From Patellaria atrata CBS 101060 (Eukaryota): a DNA stretch of 64,000 nt. The stretch's first letter is position 1. The number at the start of each line of letters is the position of its first letter. The position numbers and the translations under genes were made by a program. The notes under the pieces are model-generated. The model worked only from the letters and a program-made list of their open reading frames with translations, ran no database searches and was not told the origin of the DNA. Below, piece after piece: positions 1 through 9,979 of this stretch. The stretch spans positions 1 through 64,000 of the forward strand of contig MU006111.1 in assembly GCA_010093705.1 (NCBI GenBank). Direction: 5' to 3'.

Positions 1-1187
1 ATGGAGTATATGGTTGAACGAGATTTGCCATGTTAGAAGAATAGAGTTCTTAGCTTCGTGGTCTCTTCGAAGACGGCCTCCCTCGTAGTCTAATAAGCTT
101 GTCTTTTTCCTGTCGCTCTTGTAGAACTGGTCTAGATACTGCCGTACTGAACATCTTGGTGCCCGTTGTCGGATGTATGCAGCCGCCTGCACAAGAGCGA
201 GTGGCATGAATTCGAGCGCTGTCGCCAACTCGGCTATACCGTCGTTGTCTATTCCCTCCCCAAGTTTCTTTCGTAGGAGACTTTGCGCACCTATAATACC
301 CATCGGCTCGATGGTTAAAATGTCGGGGTCTTCGACCAACTCCAGCGCCGTACTCCTTGTCCGACTAGTGACCATAACCGCGCCGTTCTTACTCGGGGGC
401 AAATAGGATGCGAGGTGCCGTTGACGAGCGCGATCTCCGCCGCTAGCTTGTATCTTATGGCCATTGCTCGCTTGTAGAGAGAGACTGACGGCATCATCGG
501 CATTATCGAGGACTAACAGCCACTTGCCGTTCTTCTCGTTGCGAAGCCAGCTAGAAACGAGCTCGAATATATCTGCTTGTGGGTCTTTCCGACCAGCCAG
601 CTTGACTTGGTCCGCGATGGCTCGGTAGCCTTGCTCGACCCGGGCCGCGTTGCTGGCGTGAACCCAGAATACCCACGTCTCCGGCGATCGATCTGCGGTT
701 CGATAGCAGTGCTCGATAGCAAGTTGCGACTTTCTATCCCTGCGTTAGGTGCGAGGACCAGGGCGAGTGTTTTCTCCACTTACCCCACGCCACCGAAGCC
801 GACTAATGCTATACGAGATGCCGGCGTGGAGCATTTCTCGTGTATCTCATCGAGTAGCGTGCCACGATCGACGAAGTCTGGGTCACGGCAAAAGGGGATA
901 TCGCAGGAGGGGCTCGGCGGGGTCTCTAGTCTCTCTATTACAGCGGGATTTTAGTATCCTTTCTCTATGACGCAAAGTTACTAGCAACGACTCACCATTA
1001 TATTGGATGTTATAGGTTTCTGTCACGGAGCCTGACTGAAACTTAGCATGAAAACCATATCGCTGTAAATAAGAGACATACCGATCAACTGTGCATTGCC
1101 CGAGATATAACCGGCTACAGTGCCACTGTTGCCAGAGATAGGGCCAAGCTCGATTCCCATCGGGATTGCTGTCACGTTGCTAGCCAT
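1..1187 (-). CDS. Fungal NLR-like NB-ARC protein (5' part; continues beyond the left edge, probably into TPR repeats)
   Basis: Missed by the ORF track. Manual splicing (exons 1187-1082, 1031-996, 934-784, 733-<1; GT-AG introns) gives one open frame: MASNVT...ERLETPPSPSCDIPFCRDPDFVDRG...RIALVGFGGVGKSQLAIEH (Walker A)...WVFWVHAS...WLLVLDNADD (Walker B)...VMVTSR...LEFMPLALVQAAAYI...LLTWQISF. Confidence 0.85.
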
Positions 1188-1763
1188 TACTGCCGCAGAG
1201 GGTTATATATACAAGGCCCAGACACTATACTAGCGTGTTTAGGTAAGTAAAAAAATTATAGGGTACTTTGAATGAGTCGGCTAAAACATCGAAAGACTAC
1301 GCTCGAGTGCGTGGGTATATTTCCTTATAAGCTCTTCACCGGTTAACCTCTCCTAGCTTAATATCGCACAGCCTTTCTCCAGAATTAAGCCCCTACAGGT
1401 TCAGCTGTATTTCAACGTCGCTCTTAGGCTTAAACGAGTGGATATATGCACTCGCGCGGGCTTTAGGTGCGACGGGGCTACATGTAGATTGGAGACCGTC
1501 CAGCTTTCTAGCTGGGCATACGTTGGACAAGCCCCGTACCCGAAAGCTAGTAGTAAATCGGGGATGCCCGACCTTATACCATAATTTTGTATTTCTAAGA
1601 CTGCGAACCCTTCCTATATCAGCGTGTTAGGTGTGCATGCTCAAGAGTATATAACAGGCCACAGCCGCTCCATCAGCGAGGCTCGTCTATAAACATCGGT
1701 TCGGCCTAGTCAAAGTGAGAAATAGAAATAATCGCATTCACCATCTCTCCTACTTGTTCTAAC

Positions 1764-2070
1764 ATGGCCGAAAGTGTAGGATTTGGGATACCTTTACATA
1801 ACCCAAATGATGCCAAGGTCGAGTACGTCTATCCTAGAGTAGCAGCCTATGTCCATTCGACTTCTTATTCAGTCTTACTAACCAAAAGTTAGTATTATAT
1901 TTGTCCACGGTCTGGGCGGCCATAGATCTACGTAGCGTATAGCCTCGGCGGCCTTATTGTCGCAAATGTACTGTGGTAGTGTTTCGCCCGCCGGGCGTCA
2001 ATGAAACGGCGCAGAAACTCACAGAGAATACCATAGGCATGATCTTCTTGGGTACGCCATTTGCGTAACA
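1764..2070 (+). pseudogene. Degenerate SesB/SERAC1-like alpha/beta-hydrolase (lipase) fragment
   Basis: ATG at 1764 and intron 1823-1892 give MAESVGFGIPLHNPNDAKVDIIFVHGLGGHRST* (TAG where W is expected). Shifted frames then give AYSLGGLIV (AHSLGG nucleophile elbow) and TIGMIFLGTPFA. Internal deletion, frameshifts and truncation by an LTR relic. Confidence 0.7.
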
Positions 2071-2144
2071 GGCTAGAGCCTAGTGGTATGGGATGCCCTG
2101 CATCCGAAGATCAGCCAGTAATATTTCCCTCGAACCTACCCTCA

Positions 2145-2260
2145 TGTCGGATTGTTGCGGTAGCTGAAAAGATGCATGCTTGATTCTTACAAAGTAGTTC
2201 TATCTAGCTATTATATACTACAGGTGTGTACCAAAAAAGACGGAACAGTATAAAATCTAC
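2145..2260 (-). mobile_element. RIP-mutated LTR relic (3' half), same family as 4657-4780 and 10368-10537
   Basis: Shares a core of about 55 bp (AGCTGTTATATACTGCAGGTGTGTACC...GACGGAACAGTATGAAATCT) with the other two copies, differing mainly by transitions. Ends in ...GACA on the minus strand. Confidence 0.6.
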
Positions 2261-2280
2261 GTCTTAAAAAATAACGAAAT

Positions 2281-2340
2281 TAGTACCAATAGTAAGAACT
2301 AAAAGATAGTGCTGTATCAGATTAGTAACCCTGGTTACTC
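2281..2340. repeat. Dispersed repeat, inverted copy of ~7293-7350
   Basis: The reverse complement GTAACCAGGGTTACTAATCTGATACAGCACTATCTTTTAGTTCTTACTATTGGT matches 7294-7349 GTAACCAGGGTTACTAATCTGATATAATACTATATCTTTCAGTGCTTACTGTTGGT. Confidence 0.7.
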
Positions 2341-2479
2341 CGACACGTGATACTATAGTCCGTGGTGTAATAAGCGAGCAGCACATTAATCCTGGTTGCC
2401 AATATTCTAACAGAACAGCATATGCCGTCTCAACACTTTTTTTCCTTAAGTTTAAGCTTCATGTACATGTAGTAATATA

Positions 2480-4181
2480 CCTTTCAGCTTCCATCTGAGG
2501 TTGAGCCTTGACACACTCCAAGGCCAGTCTCTCGATAAATCAACCACACAAGCTATTGCTTCCACGGCAAAGAAGACATCTAGAAATGACTGTCTTAAGA
2601 AGTGCCTTTTGTGGAAAAGACGACCGTTGGAGAGTCTGCTCTTATATCAATCCACGAGCTACAAAGCCAATAGACTATTCTGAGACCACCTAAAAGCTCG
2701 TTAATACCAAGATTTTAGAGCTAAATGAGTGGCAACGACTCGTAATCCAGAAGATTCGAACATCTAAGCCAAAGAAGGCTAAAGATGAGAAAGAAGACGC
2801 CTCTAAATCTAACGACAATCGAAAAGGAGATACTGGTATATTCGTTGGAGCAAAGTTTTCGGGTCCTGCAGCCGCTTTTAATCTCGAAGCTATACAGCTA
2901 GAAGCAGTCAATGCCTTTGTCAATAGTGATCTGGACGAAGAAGTATACTGCAGATATCCGGACGGGTTCCACAAACCGGGGCTTGTCATAAAGCTTCGCA
3001 AAGCGTTATACGGACTGAAGAGATCGCCTAAGCTCTGGTATCAGTTGTTTTCGAAAACACTATAAGAGCTGGGGATGATGCCGGTTCCTAATATCAATTG
3101 CTTATTTACGGACGGGACAGTATTAGTGTTTTTCTACGTGGACGATATAGTGCTATTAGCACGTTCTCAGTTTGCAACGAAGCTCCATGAGTTTGAAGAT
3201 AAAGTGATGGGAAAGTTTCCAATGCGAGATCTTGGAGATCTCCAGTATTTTTTGAGAATACGTATCATACGCGACAGGCCAAATTTGAAAATACGGTTGT
3301 GTCAAAACGCCTATATTGACAAGATTGTCAACAGATTTGAGCTTCAGAACTGTCTTGCGAGGCATACATTCCTTCCCACCGAAGAGCTTGTTCAGAACGT
3401 GTCAGACGAAGCACCACCAAGCCTAATATCAGTATACAACACTCGGGTCGGCTCTATTGGCTGGGTGAGCAGCATAACCAGACCAGACATCGCCAAAGCC
3501 CACAGCAAGCTGTCGGAATTCCTTAAGAATCCGTCAAGCAAGCATCTTGAGGCTGCAAATCAAGTGCTGGCTTATCTGAAGTATCACAAGCATCTGGCAA
3601 TTCAGTACGATCGAATGTCGACTGGAAGGGTGTTTGCAAGCTCTTCTGACGCCTCATTTGCAGGTAACCCCGACCGGCGAAGCTCTCAGGGGTTCCTCTT
3701 CTCATTATTCGGTGGACTAATTGACTGGCAGACCTTAAAGCAGAAGACAGTGACCACCTCAAGCACAGAAGCTAAGCTGTTAGCTCTCAGTTTTGCTACC
3801 AGGGAGATGGTAGCGTGGAATCGCTTCTTTGAAGCGATCGACTGTGATCCAGAGCACCGGAGCTCAGTTTGGTGCGACAATCAACAGACGATACGGCTTC
3901 TCAAAGAACCTGAGCCTCAGTTAACAACAAAACTCAGACACGTGGATATCCACCACCTCTGGCTGAGGCAAGAGGTTCAGCATGACCGGATAAACGTAGA
4001 ATAGAAGCCTACAGCCGAGATGCCGGCAGACGGACTGACAAAACCTCTGCCCCGGCAAAAGCACGAAAACTTTGTGAACTTACTAATCCTTTCGACATAC
4101 AACACCTTATTTAAGTGTATAGAACGGACTGTGCAGCTACTGAATAGCATCAAAAACCGCTCTTGAGCAGCTGGAAGGGTG
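2480..4181 (+). mobile_element. Ty1/copia retrotransposon internal region (RT-RNase H pseudogene, internally deleted)
   Basis: RVT_2 motifs QLEAVNAFVNSDLDEEVY, LRKALYGLKRSPKLWY, YVDD and MRDLGDLQYFL; RNase H motifs SDASFA..DRRSSQG, VTTSSTEA, CDNQ, KLRHVDIHHLWLRQ and MPADGLTK. In-frame stops near 3063 (TAA) and 4002 (TAG). A purine-rich PPT-like tract precedes the LTR. Confidence 0.93.
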
Positions 4182-4656: not shown

Positions 4657-4780
4657 TGTTATGCAGATACACAGCTGCCAATGGTTACTATGCAGGTCGA
4701 GAGTTGATAGAATTGATCTTATTTAGCTGTTATATACTGCAGGTGTGTACCGAAATGGACGGAACAGTATGAAATCTATT
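4657..4780 (-). mobile_element. LTR relic (3' half)
   Basis: Carries the ~55-bp core shared with 2145-2260 and 10368-10537; ends ...ATAACA on the minus strand. Confidence 0.6.
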
Positions 4781-4790
4781 GCATACGTAT

Positions 4791-5905
4791 TCAGCCATCA
4801 CGTAAATTCATCTTTTGCTTATAGTGCTTCTGATGAGTACCGCCTTTTTCATCTGCCCAAGCCGTCGAAGCGCGCAAAATCGCCTGCTGTCTCTGCATCT
4901 TTCTTTGAACGGTGGTCAAACTCCGCATTTGTTGCTTAGAGACACCAACAAGACCCATTGCGTCTCGCACGGCGACTGCGATATCTTGAGTTCCTCCTTG
5001 GGCTCTTATGAGTGATTCGGCTTCAGCCGGGTCAGTCGAAGAAGTTATGTCAGTGTTGTCGATTGGACGACCCTCAATAATTGTTCTGTTGGAAGTCTCT
5101 TTGGCCGTCGAGGCAATTCGACGAGCAGAAAGGCGAGCCTCTCGAGCTTTGCTCTTGGATTCAACAACTTTCCCAGAGGGAAGTGTGTATTCGCCTTCCG
5201 ACAAGGCTCTATATGACCCCGCCGTATCAGCTTTTAGTGCCCGTGATTTCGGCGTCGCTTCGTCGTCACTGTCGGAAAATTCCCAGAATTCGAGAAGCTC
5301 CGGTTCGCGCTCCAAGTTGATCATACAATGACCCTTATCGAGCATGTGCCGCCGAATACTTTCAGGGGAATGCCTGGTCATTCCACAGTATAGGCACTCG
5401 TTGTACTCGATGATAACCGTGCGTAGATACCTAATGATTGTCTCGAGACTCGAGAGATGCTCCATCTCAGGAATGTAAAGACCATGCTCTGAGGACATGT
5501 GCTCAAGGTTGGTTTCCATGCTGTCTGAGTTCCTGGGACAAAATAGACAGCGGTTGATCTGAGCCTGTTCATCGATGAGATCTTGAAAATCGTCACTCTC
5601 ATCCGCGGGTTTCTTTTCAGTCGCGGGTATCACTATTGCTGAGGAAAAGGGAGCATCCGATGGTTCTTGTTTGCTCGATACAAGACTCGTTGCCACACTC
5701 TCGGCATAATTAGATGCTGAAATTGGCGGCAGAGATGCTATTCGACGTCTGAGATTATAGACACTATGAATTGGTAAGCCATTCATTCTTAGTGGGTGTT
5801 GTTCGCTTCTTACTGCCACGGCTCTCGCATGTGTGTTCGTTGACCCGGAGAATTTTCGAAAATAAGGTCGCAAGTATTGCATGGAAAAACCTTTTTGAAC
5901 GACAT
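4791..5905 (-). CDS. REI1/REH1-like C2H2 zinc-finger pre-60S ribosome biogenesis factor
   Basis: The true start is probably 5905 with one intron: MSFKKVFPCNTCDLIF...QRTHMREPWH|VYNLRRRIASLPPIS, then CLFC...NLEHMSSEHGLYIP, ECLYCG...IRRHMLDKGHC and TLPSGK. These are hallmark REI1 motifs. Confidence 0.85.
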
Positions 5906-6719
5906 AGTGTCAAATTCAGATGCGTAGCTTATAGTGTTACTTGACGATTCTCCGAGTATGAATGATATCCAGGGATAATAGGTTTTGAATGTCGCAACCA
6001 GTTCAATTGCATTTTGTCAGATCCTGGAGGTCTATTTAATATCGATTTTCTCCTTTTCGGTAGTTCAAATGCATTTCACATATTGTGTAAAAAGTGCATG
6101 GGATCGTGATGACTCGGACCACTACAAATCAGTGAGTCACGAGAAATGGGTGAAGAAGAGAGAAGAGAAATACCCCTTAGACGTTTCTTGTTAAGGGCTA
6201 GAACTAGTGTCTTGGCCAAACCTTTGCCTTTGGGCTGTGCAATCATGCCTACCTCCCTCGCCCCCAGTACATACATCACATTATATACATGAGTAGCGGT
6301 TGCAGAACTAAGCAACGTATGCGAATAATCACAATTAGCACTGTCAGTTCAGTTATTTGACTCATCCTGCACCCAGCAGTCGTCTTCGAGCTCTTCGTCC
6401 GTTCACCCATAACTGAGCGATCCGTATATCTCTAATTTGGGGCTTCAGATACGGCTCTGGATCCTCTATCAGGTACGCTCTAAGCTGAGCGATCGGCACG
6501 GGCTAGATCCGATATCAGATCAAGCCTCAGTCGGACGTGTGTACAGCCTTAGATTCGGCATCAAAATTACCTCTACCTGGCGTTCCATAAGGCGATACGG
6601 TATCATTTAAACCCTGAATAGCTTAGATTCAGTATCCAATTCAGCAACAGATTCTCCCTAAGCACACCTTAGATTCGGCATTAAACTCCGTCTTAAATTC
6701 CGCGTCAGAGGTAATAACC

Positions 6720-7350: not shown

Positions 7351-7456
7351 GGAGCACCGCTCTATTCAGGACTGTGAAGGAATACTTAAGGACGCTCCTT
7401 TGCACATGTATTTAGATTCTTCGTAGTTCTTCTTACCAGCATATCTTACTATAAGA

Positions 7457-8377
7457 TTGGATGTTACGGTCTACGACTTAACTCTACCTTATCACGCTGT
7501 TTTTATACAGTATACCTTGTCTCCGTTGTGAGCCTTTATGAAAGAGTTTAGGAGTCAGCAAGTTGTATCGTCAACTTGGAAGGGCAAACGTTCACGTTTT
7601 CCTATTATTAGCGAGACCTACCCTTCTTAGAGAAGGGTCACGTTAGTGAGAATCCTGACGCGTTTCTAGACTTGTCTTGTTCTATCTCGATAAGTATAGA
7701 CTCGCGTTGTAACAGTTGTCTTGAAGAAATTAAGTGTCACAGTGGTTTACAGCGTTAAGGGATTCCTGCAGGTGTTGGGGCTGTTTGGATTGATTACACG
7801 ATTGTACTGGTTTGGTGTTCCTTGCAACCCGTAAGCCGGCTTCGCGCCGTACATCAAAACTGCTGCAAGGAACCATCTTTCCTTTCTTTTTAGTTTTAAC
7901 TTTCTCTCTATTGCATCTAGTGCAACGGTCACTGAGCACTTCATACTGATAGGTCAGGTGTAACTGAATATATTATGCTAAGGAGTAAGAGTATCTACAA
8001 CAGCTACTCTCTAGTAAAGTTTCATACCAAGAGATTAGATCTGATTGATAGGAGATGGGCGTGAGCCTCGTCCTACCTGCTCACGTTTACTCCGTGAGGT
8101 CCAACTTAGTAGCAATTGATTAATATGTTACAACGGGAGTCTACACTTATCGAGATGGAACAGGATAAGTCTGGAAACGCGCCTGGCTTCTCACTTAACG
8201 TGGTCAACCACTAGGGTAGGTTTGGCAAAGTGATAGGATACGTATAACAAAGGCACTTCAAGTTGTCGACACAACTTGCTGACTCCTTGACTTCTGGTTA
8301 ACGCTCACAATGAGACAAGACGTACTGTATGGAAACAGTGTGACAAGTGAAGTCAAGTTCAAAACCGTAACATCCAA
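7457..8377. mobile_element. Non-coding segment of ~920 bp bounded by a 14-bp perfect inverted repeat (solo LTR or MITE-like)
   Basis: TTGGATGTTACGGT at 7457-7470 and ACCGTAACATCCAA at 8364-8377; no coding capacity inside and no clear TSD. Confidence 0.45.
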
Positions 8378-8505
8378 ATCTATGGGTAAGATTGATGGTA
8401 AGAATAACTACGAAGTATCTAAATACATGAGGGAAAGACCGTCCTTAAATATTCCTATCCTTCATAGTCAATTTGGTGCCTTTGGATGTTTTGGACTGGA
8501 CGTTC

Positions 8506-8590: not shown

Positions 8591-8947
8591 TCGTCACGTG
8601 ACCTCCAGTCACTGGTTTCACCCGTAGTTCCTCCGAGTGGTGTTCTACTTTCCTCTCACTCGTGGACTGCATGCTTCTACAACTTGTGGCCGTAACATAA
8701 TACTATCAGTTCTCTCTAGTGCACCGTGACAATTATAATAGTTATATTATGTATTAAAGAAAATAATATAAGAAGAAATAAATTAATTAATTTATAAAGA
8801 TTTTTATTTTTTATTTGAATATATGTAAAAATACTATTGAAAAAAAAGGAGTAAATCTTAAAGGGAAAGGGTGTTAGGATTTTTAGTCTAAAAATCACGT
8901 CCGTACTCGTGCAACCCAATCGAGAATTTCAGGTCCCCACCTTTATA

Positions 8948-9979
8948 ATGGCTGTGCCCGCGAGCTTTAAGGTCCACATCTTTACTCGTCATGATCCGGT
9001 CATCGCAACACTATTCCTCCGAGATCTCTATGCCGACTTTCCTCACGGGAAATGGAATCTTGCGCCTATGGTTCCAGATACTGCGCAGTCTAGTGTCCTA
9101 TCAGATCCACCTCAGCTTCCGAAAGAGCTATGGCATCGCAAAAGAATGGGACGTTTTATCTTACACACGGTCCAGCTAGCGGAAATGTCCTTAGGCGGCT
9201 TGCTTTCCGTATTTGCAGCAGTCTATGGCTTCGAGCTCAAACATCTCGCACAATTCACGATATTTCCACAGTCCGCTAGAGCCCGTAGAGATAATGCACC
9301 TTGGTATGACCGTTCACTTCCATCAACAATGTCCCTAACCGAAGCCTGGAAGCTTGACAATGATATGTGGTACCAGAGACCGCCTGAACCAAGTCCACCG
9401 TTGCACTTGGTCCTGGAGACGAAAGCCGCTGCACTTGGTAGAACTGTGGGTGATGATATCGATGTTAGTGAAGCCACGGCGTACGAATTACGCGATGCTT
9501 GGTCAACATACGAAAGTTTCTGGCGTGATTATCAGTATTGTCAGCAGGATACTCTGTCTGGTGTATTGGCTAGGTTCGAAGAAATTAGACTTCGCCTGAG
9601 TGAGCTGAGTTCTTCAGAAACAGCACTGACGTTCTCGGACGAATTGCAGCTTGGCGAGAGACTGGCCAAAAGGAAGCAAGATTTGTGCCATGCGAGGGAG
9701 GTTCTAATGACCATTGGGTCGAATCACCTTGAGTACGAAATTGAGCACGAGATATATATACTGAACAAAGAGATTGAGCAATTAGAGCCTAATCTAAGCG
9801 CCTTGAAAGAGCTGAAAAGCATGATGGCACTGCATGTTTATCCGTGGGAGCAATGGGTGATGAAGGCGAACTACAACGCAGCTTTAGAGCCACCGAATCT
9901 CCAAGAGGAGCAGATTGAAGACGAAGCCAAACGGGCATTACAGCAAATCAAAGATAAAGCTGCCAATTGGACACCCTAA
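8948..9979 (+). CDS. Hypothetical protein with coiled-coil-like C-terminal half
   Basis: Open frame of over 340 codons with protein-like composition (first ATG at 8948); no family recognised. Confidence 0.5.
   Translation: MAVPASFKVHIFTRHDPVIATLFLRDLYADFPHGKWNLAPMVPDTAQSSVLSDPPQLPKELWHRKRMGRFILHTVQLAEMSLGGLLSVFAAVYGFELKHLAQFTIFPQSARARRDNAPWYDRSLPSTMSLTEAWKLDNDMWYQRPPEPSPPLHLVLETKAAALGRTVGDDIDVSEATAYELRDAWSTYESFWRDYQYCQQDTLSGVLARFEEIRLRLSELSSSETALTFSDELQLGERLAKRKQDLCHAREVLMTIGSNHLEYEIEHEIYILNKEIEQLEPNLSALKELKSMMALHVYPWEQWVMKANYNAALEPPNLQEEQIEDEAKRALQQIKDKAANWTP

What the first reader, a model, noticed from the sequence alone, without database searches (positions are those of the whole stretch)
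930..1187. NLR N-terminus is a short Gly/Asn-rich, beta-prone peptide: candidate amyloid signalling motif
Seen: after splicing two small introns, the ~47 residues before ERLETPP and the NB-ARC domain read MASNVTAIPMGIELGPISGNSGTVAGYISGNAQLIGSVTETYNIQYN. There is no folded effector domain, and ISGN occurs twice as a pseudo-repeat. Established: many fungal NLRs lack an effector domain and signal through a short N-terminal amyloid motif (HET-s R0/HRAM, sigma, PP) that templates a separately encoded effector. Inference: this may be such a motif, and I cannot assign it by eye to a named family.
Basis: partly seen in the sequence, partly recalled or inferred. Interest (0 to 1): 0.75.

Follow-up and report, generated by a model that had tools for sequence, protein, structure and literature searches.

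The report
Fungal receptor and hydrolase share peptide
A fungal immune receptor begins with a short peptide that recurs at the tail of a lipase-like enzyme encoded next door, the layout by which such receptors switch on partners through amyloid templating, but the peptide matches none of the described fungal motif families tested.

Summary
The peptide is real. The exon model gives an open frame, and five paralogues keep all splice sites, with in-frame exon indels; no RNA data were available. In the window it is a broken remnant without its tail; on contig C3 it is intact and ends in a matching motif, N-x-G-(V/T/A)-V-x-G...(I/T)-G-S. The motif occurs in 6 NLR N-termini from other fungi and 31 of 120 hydrolase tails. 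Receptor-only and effector-only profiles detect each other, and head-to-head pairs recur in other genomes. It keeps PP/RHIM spacing but lacks the defining central glutamine, and fails Pfam and pattern tests for PP, sigma, HRAM and PUASM. Best reading: an amyloid signalling motif of an apparently undescribed fungal family. Amyloid formation is inferred, not shown; published unassigned motif classes could not be compared. The scan earlier noted NLR/SesB pairs with unassigned shared motifs in two other genomes; whether the motif is the same is unknown.

The parts
1082..1187 (-). NLR exon 1: start codon and core of the motif (N-x-G-x-V-x-G-x-I...L-I-G)
   Evidence: the five genomic copies
1032..1081 (-). 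intron 1 (50 nt, phase 1, falls in the Gly of I-G-S)
   Evidence: 12 first-exon-like fragments from other genomes diverge after the same I-G
996..1031 (-). NLR exon 2: motif tail (G-S-x-x-x-T-Y-N)
935..995 (-). intron 2 (61 nt)
784..934 (-). NLR exon 3: proline-rich linker and start of the nucleotide-binding domain up to the P-loop
734..783 (-). intron 3 (50 nt, inside the P-loop)
1..733 (-). NLR exon 4: NB-ARC-type domain, open to the contig start; TPR repeats follow in paralogues and on contig C120
   Evidence: C120 overlaps 95 nt without mismatch but equally matches the C14 copy
1188..1763 (.). 576-nt intergenic region between the divergent start codons (528 nt on C3)
1764..2064 (+). broken SesB-like alpha/beta hydrolase gene: 253-nt deletion, 8-nt insertion, ends at repetitive DNA, motif-bearing tail absent
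2065..4166 (+). repetitive DNA and a retrotransposon remnant (reverse transcriptase RVT_2) that follow the break in the hydrolase gene

Best explanation
The 47 residues are the receptor-side copy of an NLR-associated amyloid signalling motif of a family distinct from those described. Shown: the motif sits at the N-terminus of an NB-ARC-TPR NLR that has no folded effector domain, and a matching single copy sits in the low-confidence C-terminal tail of a SesB-like alpha/beta hydrolase encoded head-to-head. Inferred from the NWD2/HET-S and PNT1/HELLP/SBP models: ligand sensing by the TPRs oligomerises the NLR, clusters the N-termini into a cross-beta seed, and templates the hydrolase tail, which assembles and switches on the enzyme in a defence or cell-death response. 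The hydrolase next to the window copy is dead; the only intact motif-bearing hydrolase found in the genome is on C3, so the window NLR either signals to it in trans or is an orphan.
For: Matching motif in the intact C3 hydrolase P0001. Effector-only profile (30 sequences, none from this genome) ranks the 8 motif-type N-termini as the top 8 of 50; window 19.4 bits, best PP-type 7.4, 0 of 2000 shuffles as high. NLR-only profile (6 sequences) scores the P0001 tail 12.0 bits, 0 of 2000 shuffles. Head-to-head motif pairs in 6 of 9 distinct metagenome loci of this hydrolase subfamily, one with a NACHT-ankyrin NLR (L043). Aspergillus nanangensis P0019/P0255 have consecutive accessions and equal contig length. 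Cognate pairs are more alike than permuted ones, 3 of 720 permutations as high. Hydrolase fold for residues 1-297, tail pLDDT below 50. Motif-type NLRs are not one clade in the NB-ARC tree (p-AU 3e-43), as expected of a swappable module.
Against: No amyloid prediction or experiment, and no RNA evidence. The effector side usually has about four extra residues in the second loop, so in-register stacking is not obvious. In the co-variation test this genome's own C3 pair ranks only 2nd in its row and 4th in its column of 6, and two of six pairs were anchored by eye. With the three closest effectors removed, the weakest motif-type N-terminus (12.5 bits) barely exceeds the best PP-type (12.4). Four of the six metagenome partners show no P-loop in the DNA held. 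Three of nine loci show no partner (L045, L047, L080; little upstream DNA).
Confidence: 0.62

Rival explanations
1. It is an amyloid signalling motif but only a drifted branch of PP/RHIM (or one of the published unassigned classes such as NLR34), sharing the fold and cross-seeding with PP.
For: Same N-x-G-x-X-x-G spacing as PP (consensus in PMC3321046). 33 of 49 usable N-termini of related NLRs are PP-like. P0048 has an N-x-G-x-Q-x-G-N core followed by the tail typical of this family. SesB-type hydrolases are known PP partners.
Against: The central Q that defines PP, RHIM and BASS3 is absent in 38 of 38 members examined (members were picked with a pattern that requires V or I there, so this count is partly circular). 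PF17046 hits 2 of 3 PP-type controls and none of 11 motif-type proteins or 23 fragments. The Q-less form is matched on receptor and effector sides. NLR34 hits are mostly Fusarium NACHT proteins with no neighbouring effector.
Confidence: 0.2
2. The shared motif mediates a direct non-amyloid interaction, for example beta-strand pairing between receptor and enzyme.
For: The core is more aliphatic and poorer in Q and aromatic residues than PP or sigma; loop length differs between partners.
Against: Homologous, uncharged G/N-rich motifs at an NLR N-terminus and an adjacent effector C-terminus are the layout of amyloid templating in the systems described in PMC3321046, PMC5485727 and PMC9815663.
Confidence: 0.1
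3. The family is real, but the window copy is a leftover whose partner has been lost and which no longer signals (not exclusive of the best explanation).
For: Adjacent hydrolase broken. The C8 copy is also degenerate and C14 and C5 have none nearby. Transposon-rich surroundings.
Against: NLR frame and splice sites intact as far as the contig reaches; the window motif differs from the C3 NLR's first exon by about 9%, so it could still seed the C3 hydrolase. Signalling between non-adjacent genes is suspected in PMC9815663.
Confidence: 0.3
4. The peptide is an artefact of a wrong gene model or a chance low-complexity match.
For: No RNA reads; public models of two paralogues splice differently (P0121 skips exon 2, P0122 starts inside intron 1).
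Against: Splice-site and frame conservation; annotated homologues P0152, P0190, P0215 read through the same junction; shuffle tests.
Confidence: 0.03

Closest known systems
PNT1 / HELLP / SBP cluster of Chaetomium globosum (PP motif, Pfam PF17046)
   Same: NLR with a short N-terminal motif and no effector domain; clustered lipase-like SesB-type gene with a C-terminal copy (PMC5485727 passages); N-x-G-x-X-x-G spacing.
   Different: V or I in place of the central Q, no second N of the pseudo-palindrome, an added (I/V/T)-G-S...Y tail, no PF17046 match; no HeLo-like effector gene seen in the loci examined.
HET-eN / SesA / SesB sigma locus of Nectria haematococca (sigma motif, PF17106)
   Same: SesB alpha/beta hydrolase next to an NLR, shared terminal motif, intron inside the NLR's motif region that annotators missed (PMC3321046 passages).
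   Different: No G-x-G-x-Q-F or G-G-T-Q-N submotifs, no threefold repeat; no PF17106 match.
NWD2 / HET-S (HRAM family, PF11558)
   Same: Divergently transcribed pair; on the NLR side N at position 1, hydrophobic at 16 and G at 17 fall at HET-s spacing (numbering; profile).
   Different: G, not a hydrophobic residue, at 3; no R at 13; S or T, not N, at 18; single copy on the effector; effector is a hydrolase, not HeLo; no PF11558 match.
PUASM (PNP_UDP-associated motif)
   Same: Single Gly-rich motif linking an NLR to an enzyme.
   Different: Lacks F-x-G-x-G-x-Q-x-x-G-x-G-x-F; effector is not PNP_UDP.

Membership tests
Fungal NLR (NOD + repeats) | P-loop NB-ARC/NACHT domain followed by superstructure repeats | tested here: met
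   P-loop after splicing; close homologues carry NB-ARC and TPR families; TPRs on overlapping C120. The window exon alone scores below Pfam cut-off (NACHT E 0.004).
NLR-associated amyloid signalling system (general) | short N-terminal motif in place of an effector domain | tested here: met
   47 residues before the linker, no Pfam domain
NLR-associated amyloid signalling system (general) | homologous motif at the C-terminus of an effector encoded by an adjacent gene | tested here: met
   met on paralogue C3, L043 and A. nanangensis; in the window itself the neighbour has lost its tail
NLR-associated amyloid signalling system (general) | motifs co-vary within gene pairs | tested here: inconclusive
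   3 of 720 permutations as high over 6 pairs, but anchors partly chosen by eye and the C3 pair itself not top-ranked
NLR-associated amyloid signalling system (general) | cross-beta fibril or prion formation and NLR-to-effector seeding | not testable with these tools
PP / RHIM / BASS3 | G-phi-Q-phi-G core centred on Q | tested here: not met
   window has V; 0 of 38 members match G-x-Q-x-G; definition
PP / RHIM / BASS3 | Pfam PF17046 match | tested here: not met
   controls P0123 and P0164 match, third PP-type control P0149 does not; 0 of 11 motif-type proteins (two lists cut at 25 families) and 0 of 23 fragments match
sigma | threefold repeat of submotifs A (GxGxQF) and B (GGTQN); PF17106 | tested here: not met
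   0 of 38; no PF17106 among 23 fragments; no positive control was run
HRAM (HET-s) | N1/N18 ladder, hydrophobic 3, 6, 14, 16, basic 13, G17; double repeat on a HeLo effector; PF11558 | tested here: not met
   only N1, hydrophobic 16 and G17 fit; strict pattern 0 of 38; no PF11558; single copy on a hydrolase
PUASM | FxGxGxQxxGxGxF and PNP_UDP effector | tested here: not met
   0 of 38; effector is DUF676/alpha-beta hydrolase
Unassigned classes of PMC9815663 (NLR17, 19, 20, 34; second PNP_UDP motif) | match to the published HMMs | not testable with these tools
   HMM files unreadable; taxonomy and lack of neighbours argue against; six older motif-type hydrolase accessions absent from the tables searched
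SesB-like alpha/beta hydrolase (partner) | alpha/beta hydrolase fold with nucleophile elbow and catalytic His | tested here: met
   C3 copy: A-H-S-L-G-G Ser121 nearly invariant and His261 invariant; fold matches thioesterases, lipases, esterases; homologues named SesB. Activity untested.

The most novel reading that the evidence does not exclude
This is an additional fungal amyloid signalling family with a glutamine-free, aliphatic G-phi-V-phi-G core, spread over several Pezizomycotina classes and dedicated to SesB-like hydrolases. It is plugged onto NB-ARC-TPR and NACHT-ankyrin NLRs and also onto non-NLR proteins (motif, then a helical domain, then an unannotated region), so amyloid signalling to a hydrolase could start from a sensor that is not an NLR.
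Probability: 0.3. Interest if true: 0.78.

Novelty: new variant of a known kind. Interest (0 to 1): 0.6.

Why it matters
A 2025 paper counts five fungal amyloid signalling families (PMC12261475). A further one without the central glutamine of PP/RHIM would test which residues the RHIM-like fold needs and how parallel pathways avoid cross-seeding. It supplies a compact natural receptor-hydrolase pair for the question of how amyloid templating regulates an enzyme. It also shows why such motifs are missed: introns fall inside the motif and public gene models often lose it.

Tried and rejected
RNA support: no RNA holder listed; runs X1 and X2 are probably DNA contigs and show no intron joints, so no evidence either way. 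My first intron 3 boundary was wrong and was corrected. The alternative acceptor at 1036 was rejected because it is not conserved in C8 and C5. The ISGN repeat as a defining feature was rejected (2 of 5 copies). A search of the published N-terminus alignments for motif words was uninformative: the file is cut and a PP control word also gave nothing. The motif profile finds nothing meaningful among solved structures (best E 0.29). A named-protein search with the motif alignment could not be run (query too short). Atlas searches of the non-NLR partners gave only a lead to PF17111/SesA at 0.89 and no usable hit. No look-alike of this DNA or of P0001 among earlier scan findings. One of the 48 profile hits (P0264) is a long repeat protein and was treated as a false positive.

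Full report
Observation. The window is the first 64 kb of contig C23 of a 28.7-Mb genome. A protein encoded on contig C3 is identical to P0001, which its source names as Patellaria atrata. On the minus strand, exons 1187-1082, 1031-996, 934-784 and 733-1 give an open 342-residue frame to the contig start, with GT..AG introns of 50, 61 and 50 nt. They are 45% G/N/S/T with two charged residues, and the first exon matches no Pfam family. Contig C120 overlaps the window start by 95 identical bases and continues into TPR repeats, but it fits the C14 paralogue equally well.

Gene model. No RNA run was available. Four paralogues, 86-97% identical in the nucleotide-binding domain, lie on C14, C8, C3 and C5. 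Across the five copies all six splice dinucleotides are invariant, indels in exons 1 and 2 are 6 and 3 nt, and intron indels are mostly 1-2 nt. Twelve first-exon-like fragments from other genomes have the motif's Asn at residue 21 (20 in the window) and diverge after the same I-G. ISGN is doubled in only 2 of 5 copies.

The partner. 576 nt upstream, on the opposite strand, starts a SesB-like alpha/beta hydrolase gene. In the window it has a 253-nt deletion and an 8-nt insertion and stops at about 2064, where repetitive DNA and a retrotransposon remnant begin. On C3 the same gene is intact and head-to-head with the NLR paralogue. Its last exons encode a motif that parallels the NLR N-terminus: hydrophobic-x-x-I-x-x-N-x-G-x-V-x-G-x-I, then G-S-x-x-x-T-Y-N (the spliced end agrees with the annotated relative P0002). 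AlphaFold2 with a 21-sequence alignment gives a confident fold for residues 1-297 and pLDDT below 50 for 298-351 (P0001 as annotated keeps the last intron, so its final residues differ). The best structural matches are thioesterases, lipases and esterases. A search of the genome with the motif exon found only C3 and a degenerate C8 copy; none lies near C14 or C5.

The family. Of 193 hydrolase homologues the best 120 were listed; 31 of these 120 carry the pattern in their last 110 residues. Their source names span Dothideomycetes, Eurotiomycetes, Sordariomycetes and Leotiomycetes (class assignment recalled). Of 2152 NLR homologues the best 120 were listed; 49 had a usable N-terminus, of which 33 are PP-like, 6 from other species carry this motif only, and 10 fit neither pattern, including the paralogue models P0121 and P0122. 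A profile of 30 effector tails from other genomes ranks those 6, P0121 and the window as the top 8 of 50; the window scores 19.4 bits, the best PP-type 7.4, and 0 of 2000 shuffles reach it. Without the three closest effectors the window still scores 18.7 (0 of 2000), but the margin between the weakest member and the best PP-type nearly vanishes. A profile of the 6 NLR N-termini scores the C3 hydrolase tail 12.0 bits, rank 11 of 120, 0 of 2000 shuffles. A two-sided profile found 48 proteins at E<=0.001 among 1.84 billion; of the 34 I read, nearly all are hydrolase tails or NLR first exons and one is a false positive.

Recurrence of the pair. A metagenome scan kept 80 of 96 loci. Nine distinct ones belong to this hydrolase subfamily. 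Six have a divergent upstream gene whose N-terminus carries the motif (L043, L044, L046, L048, L049/L050, L051; two recognised by eye below profile threshold), and three do not, with about 1 kb or less upstream DNA. The L043 partner is a NACHT-ankyrin NLR; L051 ends just after its motif exons. Over six pairs, cognate similarity is matched by 3 of 720 permutations, though the C3 pair itself is not top-ranked. In an NB-ARC tree of 41 rows (5 more dropped because the P-loop pattern was not found), the 9 motif-type NLRs are rejected as one clade (p-AU 3e-43; at least 5 changes forced), being interleaved with PP-type and other N-termini. The motif therefore behaves as a discrete exchangeable module, not as a local decay of PP in one lineage.

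Mechanism. Shown: paired terminal motifs, gene clustering, hydrolase fold with a flexible tail. Inferred from NWD2/HET-S, PNT1/HELLP/SBP and HET-eN/SesA/SesB as described in the papers read: ligand-induced oligomerisation brings the NLR N-termini together, they adopt a cross-beta fold and template the hydrolase tail. That this activates the enzyme and leads to cell death is a further inference; PMC9815663 calls the link of SesB-like domains to cell death indirect. Five NLR copies face one intact hydrolase, so trans-signalling or orphan status are both open.

Comparison with known families. PP is FxGx(x)NxGLQxGxNxGxL centred on Q, and sigma is a threefold repeat of GxGxQFNxx and GGTQNINT (PMC3321046, passages). 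RHIM, PP and BASS3 share G-phi-Q-phi-G (bioRxiv 10.1101/2020.01.06.895854, passages). PUASM is FxGxGxQxxGxGxF (PMC9815663, section 24). HRAM features are from PMC4518210 (part 2 of 5). Patterns for all four match 0 of 38 members (selection by a V/I pattern makes the Q test partly circular). PF17046, which PMC12261475 identifies as PP (passage), hits two of three PP controls and no member; PF17106 and PF11558 hit none of 23 fragments. One hydrolase, P0048, joins a PP-like core to this family's tail, hinting at kinship with PP. The unassigned classes of PMC9815663 could not be tested because the HMM files are unreadable. The 25 NLR34 rows visible in a cut table are mostly Fusarium NACHT proteins, with no neighbouring effectors. 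Six older motif-type hydrolase accessions are absent from the supplements searched (two files cut, two not searched; format checked). Five literature searches showed no description of this motif, but the library lacks most subscription papers. For PMC9815663 I read sections 6, 19, 24 and 61, passages and parts of supplements; for PMC12261475 part 2 of 6 and passages; for PMC5485727 and PMC12881547 passages only.

Earlier scan notes. Two AI notes on other genomes report head-to-head NLR/SesB pairs with unassigned shared motifs. No sequence look-alike was returned, so I cannot say whether the motif is the same, and they are not counted as support.

Verdict. Observation confirmed; interpretation supported and extended by a matching effector. 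It works like a PP or sigma NLR-hydrolase system but is not a member of either by the tests run. New variant of a known kind, interest 0.6; amyloid behaviour remains untested.

Noticed in passing
L044:2263-3060 (-), L046:61-840 (-), L048: about 400-960 (-), L050:4776-5583 and 1460-2036 (-): Head-to-head partners of motif-bearing hydrolases that have the motif at the N-terminus, then a helical-looking domain (L044 and L046 29% identical; weak Atlas lead to PF17111/SesA) and, where DNA is held, a long unannotated region without P-loop (L044 and L050 weakly related). Possible non-NLR users of the motif.
   Followed up: partly
P0048 (C-terminal tail): SesB-like hydrolase with a PP-like N-x-G-x-Q-x-G-N core followed by this family's tail; a possible intermediate.
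   Followed up: no
window 1764-2064: 13 of 17 substitutions between the intact C3 hydrolase and the window remnant are C>T or G>A, compatible with RIP or deamination; not polarised with an outgroup.
   Followed up: partly
window 2694-4166 (+): Retrotransposon remnant with RVT_2 reverse transcriptase and stop codons; a 59-nt segment at 2201-2259 recurs at 4720-4778.
   Followed up: no
window 4794-5909 (-): Intact-looking gene with a zf-C2H2_2 domain.
   Followed up: no
window 7378-8456: Nested long inverted repeats (106, 70 and 34 nt arms, 77-88% complementary), resembling a degenerate non-autonomous transposon.
   Followed up: no
window 8855-9976 (+): 374-aa open frame without Pfam match.
   Followed up: no
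P0121, P0122, P0001 (public gene models of paralogues): Annotation skips exon 2, starts inside intron 1, or retains the last intron, truncating the motif; a likely reason protein-based screens miss it.
   Followed up: yes
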